Virus record (IMG/VR): IMGVR_UViG_3300044652_000032
Coordinates: 1 to 64,000 of that record
DNA from: a virus
Taxonomy: Duplodnaviria > Caudoviricetes
Direction: 5' to 3' (one strand)
Length of the DNA stretch: 64,000 nt
In this document: positions 4,457-7,502 of the stretch, piece after piece
How positions within the stretch are numbered: the first letter of the stretch is position 1
Layout: each line of letters opens with the position of its first letter
Notes under the pieces: model-generated
The model's database searches: none
What the model was told of the DNA's origin: nothing
What the model saw: the letters and a program-made list of their open reading frames with translations, nothing else
Translations under genes and position numbers: made by a program

Positions 4457-4633
4457 ATGCGCGTAGTCCCGCTGTGGATAGTCGCCATCGGGTTGGGCGT
4501 AATGGCCGTGCTGGTGGTCGCATCCCCGCGACATTATCCCGCCTTAGACGCCGCCGACGTGTGCAGCGCCGTGTTCGCTACAGGCGCTTTCGTTCTAATA
4601 GCAATAGCAGTAAGCCAGAAGGAGAACAAGTGA
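4457..4633 (+). CDS. Small membrane protein
   Basis: Two hydrophobic stretches, TGATG coupling on both sides. Confidence 0.5.
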   Translation: MRVVPLWIVAIGLGVMAVLVVASPRHYPALDAADVCSAVFATGAFVLIAIAVSQKENK

Positions 4634-4941
4634 TGACGAAAAAGATTTACGCACCCTTGAAGGACACGGTTTACCTCAAGGAGATCAAGCGCACGGAGCA
4701 GCAGACGGACGCCGGACTGGTGCTGGATGAGCGCAGCAGGACGCTGGACGACCCCCAGTACGAGGTCGTGGCCGTGGGGCCGGGCCGCCGGACGGAGGAC
4801 GGACGCGGCAACGTCCCCGTGGACTTGGAGAGGGGCCAGCGCGTGGTGCTGCTGCGGATGGCCATCCCCAACCGGATGGATGTGGACGGCGAGGCGATCA
4901 CAATCGTCAAGGAGACGGATATAGCGTGCGTCGTCGGCTGA
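4633..4941 (+). CDS. GroES/Cpn10-like co-chaperonin
   Basis: PLKDTVYL, mobile loop QTDAGLVL, EVVAVGPGR, IVKETDIACVV. Confidence 0.85.
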   Translation: MTKKIYAPLKDTVYLKEIKRTEQQTDAGLVLDERSRTLDDPQYEVVAVGPGRRTEDGRGNVPVDLERGQRVVLLRMAIPNRMDVDGEAITIVKETDIACVVG

Positions 4942-4955
4942 GGCGAAAAAAGGAC

Positions 4956-4984
4956 TTTACAAAAAAGAAAATTTTTGTTATCGT
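4956..4984 (+). promoter_or_regulatory. Sigma70-type promoter of the Y-RNA/HNH/Ro60 operon
   Basis: TTTACA (4956-61), 17 nt, TATCGT (4979-84) with extended TG; AT-rich island. Confidence 0.7.
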
Positions 4985-5001
4985 GTTTTTCGCCTTCAAA
5001 C

Positions 5002-5012
5002 AGTTCTTTGAC
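5002..5012 (+). promoter_or_regulatory. boxA-like antitermination site
   Basis: AGTTCTTTGAC immediately before the RNA cluster resembles rrn boxA. Confidence 0.4.
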
Positions 5013-5138
5013 TTTCGAGGCCATGGACGGAGCGTACATGCGATAGCTCATTTGGCAGAGCATCAGCCTATCAAGCTGAGGGTAATCGGTTCAAATCCGA
5101 TTCGCGACCAAAATGGCTCGGTCAACTCGCCTCGGAAA
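5013..5138 (+). ncRNA. Y-RNA-like RNA 1 with non-permuted tRNA D/anticodon/T arms
   Basis: Terminal stem CGAGGC 5016-21/GCCTCG 5129-34; D arm GCTC-ATTTGGCA-GAGC; anticodon arm TCAGC-CTATCAA-GCTGA; T arm ATCGG-TTCAAAT-CCGAT; acceptor stem only 4-5 bp. Confidence 0.7.
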
Positions 5139-5144
5139 CCTTGT

Positions 5145-5248
5145 GACGGTGTTGCCAAGCAACGGGCATACATGCGCTGACCTTCTAAGTCAAGAAGCAA
5201 CCCGGACTCAGTTCCGGGAGCTACGCCCGTCGGACTCGCGACCCCGTC
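5145..5248 (+). ncRNA. Y-RNA-like RNA 2 with an Arg(UCU)-like anticodon stem-loop
   Basis: Stem GACGGtGTTGC/GCGACcCCGTC; ACGGGC/GCCCGT; TGAC-CTTCTAA-GTCA; CCCGGA/TCCGGG hairpin; shares scaffold motifs with RNAs 1 and 3. Confidence 0.6.
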
Positions 5249-5262
5249 CCTACGTTCAAGAT

Positions 5263-5402
5263 AGGGACGCCAGCAGACAGCATACACGCTCGAAACCTTC
5301 GGGTTTCATTCTTGGTTCGACTCCAAGGTCCCGCTCCATACTTATGCGGGACTAGCCAAACGGTAAAGGCAAGCAACAGTAGCCGACTGCGCTCGCGTCC
5401 CT
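5263..5402 (+). ncRNA. YrlA-type Y RNA (circularly permuted tRNA mimic)
   Basis: Terminal stem AGGGACGC/GCGTCCCT; order variable arm, T arm CTTGG-TTCGACT-CCAAG, closed acceptor stem GTCCCGC-TCCATACTTAT-GCGGGAC, D arm TAGCC-AAACGGTAAA-GGC; close to a Ro60-like gene. Confidence 0.85.
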
Positions 5403-5426
5403 TTTACGTTTCCACTGCTCCCCGCA

Positions 5427-5981
5427 ATGGCACAGAAAACTAAACAGCGATTCTACCTAGCGCGGTACCGCCGCGCGCCGGACGTTGTCCCGGCGCTGAG
5501 CGACGTCGGCGACAGGCTGACAATAGCCGGATTGGTCTTCCAAGGCATGGGCGAGACCCTCGTGCTCCTGTTGCCGGGCTGCGACCCCGCCGTGGCTCCG
5601 ACCTACGCGCAGCCCGACGCGGAAGAGTGGTCGGAGATCATAAGGCAGACGGACAACGCCGAGTGCTGGGTGCTCGACCCCGACCACGGCAAGGTGCTAC
5701 ACCGCAAGGCACGGTACGCCCTCAGCGGTGAGGTGCAGCAGCGGGTTTGGGCGCGCGACGGCTTCTACTGTCGGTACTGCCACGCCGCCATGGGTCAGGT
5801 GCTGATGACGGTTGACCACTTCGTTCCCTTGGAGAAAGGCGGTGCGAACGATGACAGCAACTACATCACGGCTTGCCGCCGTTGCAATAAGCTGAAGGGT
5901 AGCCGCGACCCCGAGGAGTTCTGCCGCACCGAGGGCTACAACTACGATAATCTTGTAGCTTACCTCGCTCTCTTCAAGTAA
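5427..5981 (+). CDS. HNH endonuclease with ~100-aa N-terminal extension
   Basis: RDGFYCRYC...TVDHFVP..KGG....NYITACRRCNKLKG. Confidence 0.9.
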   Translation: MAQKTKQRFYLARYRRAPDVVPALSDVGDRLTIAGLVFQGMGETLVLLLPGCDPAVAPTYAQPDAEEWSEIIRQTDNAECWVLDPDHGKVLHRKARYALSGEVQQRVWARDGFYCRYCHAAMGQVLMTVDHFVPLEKGGANDDSNYITACRRCNKLKGSRDPEEFCRTEGYNYDNLVAYLALFK

Positions 5982-5993
5982 GGAGGCCGACTG

Positions 5994-7502
5994 ATGGCGG
6001 AAGTTACCGCATACACACGTAACAAGTTGGTGGCGTCGCTGCTGCAGATAAAGCACGGCGACCTCTCCTTGTACGAGCCGGAGGGGCTGGCTGCGGCCAA
6101 GGCGGACGCCGACCTCTTGGGTCACTTCATAGCGTGGAACGCCCTGCGGGGTAAGGTGCGCGACGCGCGCGTCGCCTTGCCCGTCATAGCTCTCCGGGGC
6201 ACGCAGCGCGAAGACCGCGATCTGGCCGAGAACGCCGTGGCGCATCTGCTGAAGCTGGATCCGCGCGAGCTGCTCCGCGCCTACACGTACTCCACGCAGT
6301 TATCGAAGCGCGGGCTGACCATCACGGGAGGCCACCGCCGCCTGCTCGAAGTGGGGCTGCGCCGCTACCTCGAGGTGAGGGAGGACAACGCGCGGTGGTG
6401 GGACAGAACGGTCTTGCAGCACCGCCGACCGATGAAGTTCCTTTACCGCGCGGCGCACAAGCGTCCGAGCGCGCGGGCGCAGCGCATCCTCTTCGACGAG
6501 GACTACCCGCGCACCTCCGTGTTCGCCACGGTCAAGGCGCTCCGCACCATGACGCCGCGCGAGGCTGCCGGGGCAATACTGCAGTACCAGATACCGTGGG
6601 AGGTGGCGGTCGGCTCGGTCGCCAAGGCGAAGGATCGTGAGGTGCTCCTCGCCCTGATCGAGGGGATGACCGGCAACCAGCTCATCACCAACTCGGCCAT
6701 GCTGCAGCGGCTGGGCGTGATGCAGGACGAGGTCTTGAAGGCTGCGTACGAGTCGGCGCTCGCGCGTGCTACGTCCTCTAGCAAGGTCGAAACCCTCAAG
6801 GCCGGACACGCGGCTGAAAAGTTGAAGGGGACGGCTGCAGGGGAAAAGCTGGCGGCCCTGCAGGAGCGCAAGAGCGCGCAGATGGGCACGATAGACGGCG
6901 ACTGGCTGGTGTTGGGCGACTGCTCGGCCTCCATGAGCACGAGCATCGAGGTGGCGCGGCAGGTTGCGGCGTTTATCGCCCAGCGCGTGGCCGGGGCGGT
7001 GTACCTCGTCTTCTTCAACACGCAGCCCACCTTCGTGGACGTGACGGGGCTGACGTACCAGCAGATTCTGGAGAAGACCCGACGCATAACGCCGCAGGGC
7101 GGCACCGCCATCGGCGTCGGGCTGGACTACATACTCAGCCGACGGCTGGTGGTGCAGGGCATAGCCGTCTGCTCGGACGGCGGCGAGAACCAGCACCCGG
7201 CCTTCGCGCCGACGTACCGGCGCTACTGCGAGCAGATGCAGGTGGAGCCGACCGTTTACCACTTCCACGTCCCCGGCGATCAGGACGTTTTGAGCCTGAA
7301 CTGTCGCAACATGGGCGTCCCTCTGGAGCAGTTCCCGATGGGCCGCAACGTGGACTACTACGCGCTGCCCAACCTCGTAGAGACGATGCGCGTCAACCGC
7401 TACGCGCTCTTTGACGAAATTATGAGCGTCGAACTCTTGACAATAGAGAAGGCGCTGGAAAGGAGGCCGAGCCATGAGCGAGTTCAGGCAGTACCGGCGT
7501 AA
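5994..7502 (+). CDS. Ro60/Rsr-like TROVE + vWA protein
   Basis: Helical basic N-terminal two thirds, vWA MIDAS (LVLGDCSASM, GGT, VCSDGGEN), ~500 aa, adjacent Y-RNA-like genes. Confidence 0.8.
   Translation: MAEVTAYTRNKLVASLLQIKHGDLSLYEPEGLAAAKADADLLGHFIAWNALRGKVRDARVALPVIALRGTQREDRDLAENAVAHLLKLDPRELLRAYTYSTQLSKRGLTITGGHRRLLEVGLRRYLEVREDNARWWDRTVLQHRRPMKFLYRAAHKRPSARAQRILFDEDYPRTSVFATVKALRTMTPREAAGAILQYQIPWEVAVGSVAKAKDREVLLALIEGMTGNQLITNSAMLQRLGVMQDEVLKAAYESALARATSSSKVETLKAGHAAEKLKGTAAGEKLAALQERKSAQMGTIDGDWLVLGDCSASMSTSIEVARQVAAFIAQRVAGAVYLVFFNTQPTFVDVTGLTYQQILEKTRRITPQGGTAIGVGLDYILSRRLVVQGIAVCSDGGENQHPAFAPTYRRYCEQMQVEPTVYHFHVPGDQDVLSLNCRNMGVPLEQFPMGRNVDYYALPNLVETMRVNRYALFDEIMSVELLTIEKALERRPSHERVQAVPA

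What the first reader, a model, noticed from the sequence alone, without database searches (positions are those of the whole stretch)
5145..5248. Y-like RNA carrying an isolated tRNA-Arg(UCU)-like anticodon stem-loop
Seen: TGAC-CTTCTAA-GTCA (5178-5192) has a canonical 7-nt loop (C32 U33 UCU A37 A38), with no D or T arm, mounted on the shared scaffold next to a CCCGGA/TCCGGG hairpin. From memory, GAC-CTTCTAA-GTC is the anticodon arm core of bacterial tRNA-Arg(UCU). Inference: a minimal anticodon decoy or substrate.
Basis: partly seen in the sequence, partly recalled or inferred. Interest (0 to 1): 0.75.

Follow-up and report, generated by a model that had tools for sequence, protein, structure and literature searches.

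The report
Phage Y-like RNA displaying anticodon arm
This ~100-base stretch is most likely a small non-coding RNA of a phage that joins a conserved "handle" to a look-alike of a tRNA anticodon arm. It is probably a partner RNA of the highly diverged Ro60-type ring protein encoded just downstream, which would make it an undescribed variant of the Ro60/Y-RNA particle.

Summary
TGAC-CTTCTAA-GTCA lies at 5178-5192 and CCCGGA/TCCGGG at 5201-5218. There is no D or T arm. The element sits between two paralogues, 5013-5138 and 5264-5401, that share GCCA-N-GCRTACAYGC.

The 502-aa protein at 5994-7502 has no Pfam TROVE hit but folds as a complete Ro60 (HEAT-repeat ring plus VWA domain). Homologues in about 160 phage and metagenome loci are preceded, on the same strand, by arrays of RNAs with a covarying two-helix handle. 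These carry whole tRNA mimics, permuted tRNA mimics or small hairpins.

Isolated anticodon-like arms are a recurrent payload: 14 of 64 small modules have one, against 2.2 in shuffles. The arm sits at a fixed place after UACAUGC, and all five of its stem pairs covary.

CUUCUAA recurs in four other lineages, but the nearest relatives carry CUGAUAA, GCGAUCA or a 6-nt loop. The Arg(UCU) identity is therefore not conserved.

The window's handle is a divergent variant. It misses both my consensus model and Rfam YrlA. A decoy, tether or substrate function is untested.

This scan has noted the same protein-RNA pairing in other phage genomes. I found no description in the literature searched.

Verdict: new variant of a known kind, moderately interesting.

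The parts
4956..4984 (+). Sigma-70-like promoter candidate for the RNA array and operon
   Evidence: TTTACA-17-TATCGT with an extended TG. It is the only site found in 4850-5500 (0.2 expected). This is a consensus match only.
5013..5138 (+). Paralogous element T: a handle enclosing a nearly complete tRNA look-alike (anticodon AUC)
   Evidence: Rfam tRNA scores 51 bits at 5040-5105, and ARAGORN calls 5037-5109 with anticodon atc. The fold shows the UUUCGAGGC/GCCUCGGAA basal stem. It is the only tRNA call in the 95-kb genome.
5145..5248 (+). Element A (the finding): the whole small RNA as delimited by its terminal pairing
5151..5175 (+). Handle, 5' strand: basal GUUGC, CA, AGCAACGGGC helix strand, and the junction AUACAUGC
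   Evidence: The motif is shared with elements T and B. RUACAYGC is the invariant junction of the family.
5173..5199 (+). Arm H1, the anticodon-arm mimic: UGC/GCA closing helix (5173-5175 with 5197-5199), 4-bp stem UGAC/GUCA (5178-5181 with 5189-5192) and loop CUUCUAA (5182-5188)
   Evidence: Homologous arms in L061, L069, L200, L210 and L254 carry compensatory stem changes.
5201..5218 (+). Hairpin H2: CCCGGA-CUCAGU-UCCGGG. It is inferred to be the closed counterpart of an acceptor-like stem.
   Evidence: In relatives the same position holds a GC-rich hairpin (L061, L199, L200). In L197 element 4 it holds an open 7-bp stem ending in UCCA.
5225..5242 (+). Handle, 3' strand: GCCCG(U), UCGGACUC and basal GCGAC
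   Evidence: UCGGACUC resembles the family's 3' motif UCGACUY with one extra G.
5264..5401 (+). Paralogous element B: a handle plus a permuted tRNA body with no anticodon loop. Order: UUCG hairpin, T arm, 7-bp acceptor closed by a loop starting U-CCA, D arm.
5427..5981 (+). HNH endonuclease gene lying between the RNAs and the Ro60-like gene
   Evidence: Pfam HNH 7.6e-12. By eye, the same arrangement is present in the closest relative L197.
5994..7502 (+). Highly diverged Ro60 homologue (HEAT-repeat ring plus VWA domain with a MIDAS site), the presumed protein partner
   Evidence: No Pfam TROVE hit; only weak VWA hits. D309/S311/S313 are invariant in 45 homologues. The AlphaFold2 model has pLDDT 89. 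The top 11 Foldseek PDB hits are all Ro60/Rsr/phage Ro60, with TM 0.59-0.65 over about 500 columns.

Best explanation
Element A (5145-5248) is a small non-coding RNA. It is one of three tandem paralogues, probably transcribed from one promoter ahead of an HNH gene and a highly diverged Ro60 gene. Each paralogue has two parts.

Part 1 is a handle: a terminal stem, a second helix and the junction RUACAYGC. By analogy with Y RNAs and from strict genomic linkage, the handle is inferred to dock the RNA on the phage Ro60-like ring.

Part 2 is a payload that copies part of a tRNA. In A the payload is a three-way junction with two arms:
- an anticodon-arm look-alike: UGC/GCA closing helix, 4-bp stem and a 7-nt loop of the form C32-U33-NNN-A37-A38;
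- a GC hairpin that stands where relatives have an acceptor-like stem.

The most likely mode of action is that of a Y RNA. The handle holds the ring protein while the payload offers an anticodon-arm shape to a factor that reads anticodon loops. That factor could be a modification enzyme, a synthetase or a host anticodon nuclease. The RNA would then act either as an adaptor that brings the factor to the Ro60 particle or as a decoy.

What is shown: the sequence features, the fold of the protein model, the family-wide handle with covariation, the recurrence and covariation of the anticodon-like arm, and the same-strand linkage.

What is inferred: transcription and processing, binding to the Ro60-like protein, and any interaction of the loop. 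The particular triplet UCU is probably not the essential feature.
For: Protein. The model has pLDDT 89. The best PDB matches are all Ro60/Rsr, including Thermus phage phiLo Ro60. The MIDAS residues are invariant.

Linkage. In 161 related loci, handle matches at score 12 or more number 201 upstream on the gene's strand, 21 downstream on the same strand, 7 inside the gene (5 on its strand) and 1 on the opposite strand outside it. Reversed-sequence controls give 8. All 122 hits of covariance model R1 (E <= 0.001) are on the gene's strand.

Handle structure. 90% of cells are paired against 52% in shuffles and 32-46% when slid. All 14 pairs show double changes.

Payload class. Anticodon-like arms (stem of 4 bp or more, loop YU-NNN-R-N, not a T loop) occur in 14 of 64 payloads without T or D arms, against 2.2 +/- 1.4 after shuffling. 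They occur in 9 of 18 'D-only' payloads against 0.6.

Arm H1. It sits at a fixed position after UACAUGC and is closed by UGC/GCA. It covaries in 6-8 elements from different phages, with 5 of 5 pairs changed on both sides.

The CUUCUAA loop. A bona fide family member (L018/L061 2878-2979; R1 41.5 bits, E 2.6e-9) has the same loop on a different stem (UUUAC/GUAAA), followed by a GC hairpin. CUUCUAA also sits right after UACAYG in the permuted tRNA mimics of L017, L053 and L073.

Mimicry rather than decoding. tRNA-like payloads inside handles carry non-decoding anticodons: 16 of 39 have A34 or a stop anticodon, against about 10 of 267 free tRNAs. The genome has no genuine tRNA.

Precedent. Y RNAs lie near Ro60 on the same strand, and several per locus mimic tRNA (PMC4201824). 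Phage Ro60 binds phage-encoded Y-like RNAs (PMC12135203).
Against: - There are no expression, processing or binding data.
- The window's handle is divergent. It lacks the family's ACUG and exact CGACU motifs, and the consensus model R1 finds nothing in the window even with filters off.
- Neither Rfam YrlA nor any other Rfam family matches.
- The canonical Ro-binding motifs (GGUCCGA; GNCGAAN0-1G on the 5' strand) are absent.
- The stem has only 4 bp before a C-A mismatch.
- In the nearest relatives the equivalent loop is not conserved: CUGAUAA, GCGAUCA and a 6-nt loop.
- An alternative pairing of GUUGC (5151-5155) with GCAAC (5197-5201) is possible.
- Five occurrences of CUUCUAA among roughly 80 loops is not significant after allowing for 64 possible triplets.
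Confidence: 0.65

Rival explanations
1. A specific tRNA-Arg(UCU) anticodon decoy. The loop imitates exactly this tRNA in order to soak up, or report on, an Arg-anticodon-directed host nuclease or an enzyme acting on tRNA-Arg(UCU).
For: The loop is identical to that of 7 of 9 phage tRNA-Arg(UCU) genes. The same loop recurs in handle context in four other lineages: L018/L061, L017, L053 and L073. From general knowledge, unchecked here, some anticodon nucleases accept bare anticodon stem-loops, and colicin D targets the tRNA-Arg isoacceptors.
Against: The nearest relatives carry other loops. Triplets across the family are diverse, and the count of CUUCUAA is not significant after multiple testing. 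The stem does not match any tRNA-Arg stem seen. The host is unknown.
Confidence: 0.12
2. A decaying paralogue. A is a duplicate of a fuller tRNA-mimic Y-like RNA that lost its T and D arms and is drifting, so the anticodon-like loop is a relic without a role of its own.
For: There are three tandem paralogues. Payload architecture turns over quickly between close relatives, including circular permutation. Loops are not conserved in L199 and L200.
Against: The same reduced architecture (anticodon-like arm plus GC hairpin on a handle) is kept in distant phages with compensatory changes. Anticodon-like arms are strongly enriched in small payloads.
Confidence: 0.1
3. The handle is not a Ro60 docking site. 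It is instead a processing or stability cassette, for example flanking stems cut by a host RNase, that excises tRNA-like RNAs which act independently of the Ro60-like protein.
For: Each element is bracketed by a 5-10 bp terminal stem, as in rRNA and tRNA precursors. In L197 the handle is a closed arm while the acceptor ends are free and end in NCCA. The canonical Ro-binding motifs are absent.
Against: The internal-loop and junction sequences (YACUG, YUACAYG, YCGACUY) are conserved across proteins only about 40% identical, while the helices covary. That pattern is typical of a specific protein site. The elements co-occur with this gene on the same strand in 68 of 125 loci, even with a strict pattern.
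Confidence: 0.1
4. A cis-acting leader or attenuator of the HNH/Ro60 mRNA, or a chance hairpin.
For: The element lies in the 5' untranslated region of the operon. The H2 hairpin scores as a terminator-like site, but only on the minus strand.
Against: There is no plus-strand terminator tail. There are three modular paralogues with tRNA-like payloads. In L061 the homologue abuts the Ro60 gene with no HNH gene between. Covariation is seen across phages.
Confidence: 0.03

Closest known systems
Bacterial and mycobacteriophage YrlA-type Y RNAs with Rsr/Ro60 (Chen et al. 2014, PMC4201824; Wang et al. 2018, 10.1101/312249; Rfam RF02553)
   Same: They are small RNAs encoded upstream of a Ro60 homologue on the same strand, with several per locus. 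They are modular: a protein-binding stem plus an effector domain that imitates tRNA. The neighbouring element B has the YrlA order of T arm, closed acceptor and D arm.
   Different: YrlA lacks an anticodon loop, as stated explicitly in 10.1101/312249. Element A has an anticodon-like arm and lacks T and D arms. The 5' strand has no GNCGAAN0-1G motif. RF02553 finds nothing in the genome at E <= 10. The protein is not recognised by Pfam TROVE.
Deinococcus radiodurans Yrn1
   Same: Chen et al. 2014 model it with a possible 'anticodon arm' (5-bp stem) in addition to a T arm, on a Ro-binding stem.
   Different: The Yrn1 loop has 6 nt and the RNA keeps a T arm. Here the loop has the canonical 7 nt with U33 and A37, and there is no T arm.
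Yrl1/Yrl2 of Thermus phage phiLo with phage Ro60 (PMC12135203; PDB 9KOP, 9L5Y)
   Same: This is a phage-encoded Ro60 with phage-encoded partner RNAs upstream of the gene. It is the best structural match of the protein model.
   Different: Those RNAs were identified by a CGAA motif in a large bulge and are not reported to carry tRNA parts. Sequence identity to the protein here is about 17%.
Handle-tagged tRNA-mimic RNA arrays beside Ro60-like genes in other phages
   Same: The architecture is the same: terminal stem, second helix, RUACAYG junction, payload. The payload classes are the same: whole, permuted or partial tRNA. The elements sit on the same strand next to homologues of the same protein.
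   Different: The window, with L197, L199 and L200, carries a variant handle: CA plus a longer helix on the 5' side, and UCGGACUC or (A/G)UCGCUC on the 3' side. R1 does not detect it.
tRNA-Arg(UCU)
   Same: The 7-nt loop CUUCUAA is identical.
   Different: There is no cloverleaf, the stem is 4 bp, and the stem sequence is unrelated to the phage tRNA-Arg stems seen.

Membership tests
Y RNA (partner RNA of Ro60) | Encoded close to a Ro60 homologue and on the same strand | tested here: met
   A ends 746 nt upstream of the 502-aa gene on the same strand. The protein model matches Ro60 structures.
Y RNA (partner RNA of Ro60) | Terminal stem carrying the conserved Ro-binding sequence (GGUCCGA in animals; GNCGAAN0-1G near the 5' end in bacteria, PMC4201824) | tested here: not met
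   A terminal stem is present, but no such motif occurs in 5145-5175. A different conserved junction (RUACAYGC) and a different 3' motif are present instead.
Y RNA (partner RNA of Ro60) | Physically bound by Ro60 | not testable with these tools
   This needs immunoprecipitation or gel-shift assays.
YrlA (Rfam RF02553) | Match to the covariance model at or near the gathering score (69 bits) | tested here: not met
   There is no match at E <= 10 in the region or in the whole 95-kb genome.
YrlA (Rfam RF02553) | T arm, closed acceptor-like stem and D arm, in that order | tested here: not met
   A has neither a T nor a D arm. The neighbouring element B does.
tRNA-Arg(UCU) | Cloverleaf recognised by tRNA finders | tested here: not met
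   ARAGORN and Rfam tRNA call only 5037-5109.
tRNA-Arg(UCU) | Anticodon loop C32-U33-UCU-A37-A38 on a 5-bp stem | tested here: inconclusive
   The loop is identical to 7 of 9 phage tRNA-Arg(UCU) genes. The stem has 4 bp and then a C-A mismatch.
   There is no hit in the window with default filters or with filters off. The model finds 122 elements in related loci.
Location: same strand, upstream of the Ro60-like gene. | tested here: inconclusive
   The junction AUACAUGC, both helices and the location are present. The 5' YACUG is absent and the 3' motif is UCGGACUC. The homologue L018/L061, with the same loop, is a clear member.
Ro60/TROVE protein (the presumed partner) | Pfam TROVE domain (PF05731) match | tested here: not met
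   There is no TROVE hit at E <= 0.01. There are no NCBIfam hits and no PDB sequence hit.
Ro60/TROVE protein (the presumed partner) | HEAT-repeat ring plus C-terminal VWA domain with a MIDAS site | tested here: met
   The Foldseek top hits are all Ro60/Rsr over about 500 columns, TM 0.59-0.65. DxSxS is invariant.

The most novel reading that the evidence does not exclude
The phage Ro60-like particle is a display platform. Handles present separate pieces of tRNA on separate RNAs: here a bare anticodon arm on A, an anticodon-less elbow and acceptor body on B, and a non-decoding whole mimic on T. These pieces intercept or recruit distinct tRNA-directed factors. Element A would act specifically as an anticodon-stem-loop decoy or sensor for a host anticodon-directed defence nuclease or modification enzyme.
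Probability: 0.15. Interest if true: 0.85.

Novelty: new variant of a known kind. Interest (0 to 1): 0.58.

Why it matters
Y RNAs are thought to work by tethering Ro60 to effector proteins, and the known bacterial ones imitate the tRNA elbow but lack an anticodon loop. A Ro60-linked RNA whose payload is essentially an anticodon arm would mean the particle can also address factors that read anticodons.

Three family-level observations add to this:
- whole, permuted and partial tRNA mimics are swapped on one handle;
- circular permutation occurs between close relatives;
- the anticodons are non-decoding.

Together they give a concrete, testable entry into what phage Ro60 systems do. One possibility is interplay with tRNA-targeting host defences. 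The finding also exposes a large Ro60 clade and an RNA family that Pfam and Rfam do not recognise.

Tried and rejected
1. Rfam at gathering and at E <= 10 finds only tRNA at 5040-5105 and nothing for A. YrlA RF02553 finds nothing in the genome.

2. A DNA search of the phage collection found no relatives. A single-protein scan of viral contigs also found none.

3. The consensus handle model R1 did not detect the window's elements. Membership in that RNA family therefore rests on architecture and on the L018/L061 homologue, not on a score.

By my estimate most hits were chance matches, and after structural filtering it added only the contig of L061.

The contigs of the closest Logan and ENA homologues (P0002-P0007, 61-65% identity) could not be examined, and only L197 (66%) was reachable.

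6. RNAalifold on a MAFFT alignment of eight A-type elements recovered only the terminal stem. The H1 arm was then tested with an explicit structure.

7. The minus-strand terminator reading of H2 is rejected, because no minus-strand gene lies to its right.

8. RtcB and CCA-adding enzyme genes were searched for in the genome as possible functional partners and are absent.

10. Enrichment of the specific triplet UCU is not significant once 64 possible triplets are allowed for.

Full report
**1. What is in the sequence**

One search shows a 485-nt gene-free stretch (4942-5426) between a GroES-like gene (4633-4941; Pfam Cpn10 1.8e-12) and an HNH endonuclease gene (5427-5981).

The finding's coordinates hold exactly:
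- UGAC at 5178-5181, loop CUUCUAA at 5182-5188, GUCA at 5189-5192;
- CCCGGA at 5201-5206, loop CUCAGU at 5207-5212, UCCGGG at 5213-5218.

The whole element is closed by GACGG/CCGUC (5145-5149 with 5244-5248) and GUUGC/GCGAC (5151-5155 with 5238-5242). The minimum-energy and centroid folds keep both hairpins (-39.5 kcal/mol, z = -2.6).

tRNA finders call nothing in A. The only call in the window is 5037-5109, with anticodon AUC, and it is also the only call in the complete 95,182-bp genome.

The scaffold is shared by three tandem elements: T at 5013-5138, A at 5145-5248 and B at 5264-5401. GCATACAYGCKC is exact only at 5166 and 5280 in the 64 kb, with a near copy at 5032. GCCA precedes it by 11-12 nt each time. 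A sigma-70-like site lies at 4956-4984.

**2. The neighbouring protein is a hidden Ro60**

The 502-aa product of 5994-7502 has only weak VWA hits in Pfam and no TROVE hit. It has a weak hit to PHROG 850, 'RNA-binding protein', nothing in NCBIfam and nothing in PDB by sequence.

It has at least 145 homologues, and none carries a TROVE annotation. In an alignment of 45 of them the MIDAS residues D309, S311 and S313 are invariant.

The AlphaFold2 model is confident (pLDDT 89.2, pTM 0.79). Its 11 best PDB matches are all Ro60/Rsr: Thermus phage phiLo Ro60 (9KOP, 9L5Y), Xenopus and human Ro60, and Deinococcus Rsr. They align over about 500 columns at TM 0.59-0.65 and about 16% identity. VWA-only proteins follow far behind. 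The 'Y-like' context is therefore real.

**3. The RNA family**

Homologues of the protein were located in 75 viral contigs, 80 metagenome contigs and 6 MAG contigs.

Upstream of them lie arrays of elements with one architecture:
- terminal stem
- YACUG(A)
- second helix of 5-7 bp
- YUACAYG
- payload
- second-helix partner strand
- (U)CGACUY
- terminal-stem partner strand

With a strict pattern at score 12 or more, the matches are distributed as follows:

| Position relative to the gene | Matches |
|---|---|
| Upstream, gene's strand | 201 |
| Downstream, gene's strand | 21 |
| Inside the gene, gene's strand | 5 |
| Inside the gene, opposite strand | 2 |
| Downstream, opposite strand | 1 |
| Reversed-sequence controls (all) | 8 |

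Of 125 loci with at least 1 kb upstream, 68 have at least one match and some have up to seven.

A covariance model of the handle (R1, built from 22 small elements) finds 122 elements at E <= 0.001 in 100 loci, all on the gene's strand. Both helices covary. 90% of cells are paired, against 52% in shuffles and 32-46% when slid, and all 14 pairs show double changes. That alignment is fitted to the model, which favours pairing.

Rfam finds only tRNA in eight of these loci.

**4. Payloads**

Among 200 distinct elements the payloads divide as follows:

| Payload class | Count |
|---|---|
| tRNA-ordered look-alikes | 46 |
| Permuted (T arm before D arm) | 38 |
| T-only | 34 |
| D-only | 18 |
| Small, with neither arm | 64 |

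tRNA look-alikes inside handles often carry non-decoding anticodons. 11 of 39 have A34 other than ACG, and 5 of 39 have UUA or UCA. Among 267 free tRNAs of the same loci the counts are 6 and 4.

Anticodon-like arms (stem of at least 4 bp, 7-nt loop YU-NNN-R-N, T loops excluded) are strongly enriched in payloads that lack T and D arms. They occur in 14 of 64 such payloads against 2.2 +/- 1.4 after shuffling, and in 9 of 18 D-only payloads against 0.6. An isolated anticodon-like arm on a handle is therefore a recurrent payload class, not a peculiarity of this window.

**5. Element A in that light**

A bona fide family member, L018/L061 2878-2979 (R1 41.5 bits, E 2.6e-9), has the same plan as A. 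After GUACAUGC comes UUUAC-CUUCUAA-GUAAA, then AGUGCAGC, then a GC hairpin (UCCCGG...CCGGGA), then the 3' handle. The loop is identical to A's and the stem differs by compensatory changes.

CUUCUAA also follows UACAYG directly in the permuted tRNA mimics of L017, L053 and L073.

In A and in its counterparts in L061, L069, L200, L210 and L254 the hairpin sits on a short UGC/GCA helix. The 3' motif there is AGCAAC or UGCAGC. In an unfitted MAFFT alignment, all five stem pairs change on both sides while keeping pairing.

**6. The closest relatives**

L197 (66% protein identity, and by eye the same HNH gene between the RNAs and the Ro60 gene) has four GUACAUGC junctions. There the tRNA-like acceptor stems are open and end in N-CCA. 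The handle is a closed arm inserted just before GUACAUGC. This is a circular permutation of the window's arrangement.

L197 element 4 (about 1692-1790) is the counterpart of A. It has a 7-bp acceptor-like stem, the handle arm and an anticodon-like arm CUCGA-CUGAUAA-UCGAG, with no T or D arm. This is why I read A's H2 hairpin as a closed acceptor-like stem, which is an inference.

In L199 (56% identity) the counterpart has loop GCGAUCA. In L200 (52%) it has a 6-nt UUUGGU loop.

The arm is therefore conserved, a canonical 7-nt U33/R37 loop is only partly conserved, and the triplet UCU is not conserved. Across the family the triplets are diverse. Five occurrences of CUUCUAA among roughly 80 loops is not significant once 64 triplets are allowed for.

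The loop does equal that of 7 of 9 real phage tRNA-Arg(UCU) genes. Their stems are unrelated to UGAC/GUCA.

**7. Caveats on membership**

The window's handle is a variant shared with L197, L199 and L200. It has CA plus a longer helix on the 5' side, and UCGGACUC or (A/G)UCGCUC on the 3' side. R1 finds nothing in the window, even with filters off. R1 also gave no hit at E <= 0.001 in L197, L199 or L200.

Rfam YrlA (RF02553) has no match in the genome at E <= 10. The canonical Ro-binding motifs of animal and bacterial Y RNAs (PMC4201824) are absent.

A is therefore not a member of YrlA by any tested criterion. I file it as a variant of the Ro60/Y-RNA kind on three grounds: the fold of the protein, the linkage and the modular architecture.

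**8. Mechanism**

Best supported: A works like a Y RNA. The handle docks on the Ro60-like ring. This is inferred from linkage and from conserved loop sequences between covarying helices. The payload then offers an anticodon-arm shape to a factor that reads anticodon loops, acting as adaptor or decoy.

Published precedents:
- Y RNAs tether Ro60 to PNPase and mimic tRNA (PMC4201824).
- YrlA folds like tRNA but lacks the anticodon loop and a free CCA end (10.1101/312249).
- Thermus phage Ro60 binds phage Y-like RNAs and host PNPase (PMC12135203).
- Jumbo-phage TROVE proteins have been linked to RNA repair (PMC7824862).

This genome encodes no RtcB or CCA-adding enzyme and no genuine tRNA. AGA codons are rare.

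The rivals are a specific Arg(UCU) decoy, a decaying paralogue, a processing cassette independent of Ro60, and a cis-acting leader. They are weighed in their own sections.

**9. Novelty and prior notes**

Literature searches found the canonical Ro60/Y-RNA and phage Ro60 papers. They found no description of this handle, of Ro60-linked RNAs carrying bare anticodon arms, or of this diverged Ro60 clade.

The scan's earlier AI notes report the same protein-RNA pairing in several other phage genomes, and they cover element T of this window. They agree with what I found independently but are not independent evidence.

This is a new variant of a known kind, and its function is open.

Noticed in passing
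window 5013-5138: Element T is a handle enclosing a nearly complete tRNA look-alike with anticodon AUC. Its top two acceptor pairs are mismatched and ACCA follows a 5-bp acceptor stem. It is the only tRNA-finder call in the whole 95-kb genome.
   Followed up: partly
window 5264-5401: Element B is a permuted tRNA body: UUCG-capped hairpin, T arm, a perfect 7-bp acceptor stem closed by a loop beginning U-CCA, then a D arm. It has no anticodon loop, so it is the reciprocal of element A.
   Followed up: partly
L197 1440-1910: In the closest relative the same RNA types are circularly permuted. The acceptor stems are open and end in N-CCA, and the handle is a closed arm (3-5 bp plus a tetraloop) placed before GUACAUGC. 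Both topologies would give the same shape after processing.
   Followed up: partly
L002-L076 and L197-L282 (RNA arrays upstream of the Ro60-like gene): tRNA look-alikes embedded in handles carry A34 or stop anticodons in 16 of 39 cases (AUC, ACU, AAU, AAA, UUA, UCA and others). About 10 of 267 free tRNAs in the same loci do. This suggests they are kept out of decoding.
   Followed up: yes
L008 2607, L069 2759, L071 1628, L208 97, L234 5179, L200 2392: A second flavour of loop occurs in the arm after UACAUGC: YUU-N-GGA (CUUUGGA, AUUGGGA twice, CUUGGGA, UUUAGGA). It carries G36-G37, as in tRNA-Pro and tRNA-Leu loops. This is unexplained.
   Followed up: no
window 5427-5981 and L197 1926-2476: An HNH endonuclease gene with an unassigned N-terminal region of about 100 aa sits between the RNA array and the Ro60-like gene in both the window and its closest relative. 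It is absent in L061, where the RNAs abut the Ro60 gene.
   Followed up: no
window 4633-4941: A phage GroES-like co-chaperonin gene lies directly upstream of the RNA array promoter.
   Followed up: no
window 5201-5218, minus strand: The simple scan flags the H2 hairpin as a minus-strand terminator. No minus-strand gene lies to its right, so this is an artefact of the GC hairpin followed by T-rich sequence.
   Followed up: yes
L277 (MEWG01000024.1) and L278-L282: Homologues of the Ro60-like gene sit on contigs binned into MAGs of WWE3, Clostridia, Terrimicrobiaceae and Acidobacteriaceae. These are probably phage or prophage contigs and may hint at hosts.
   Followed up: no
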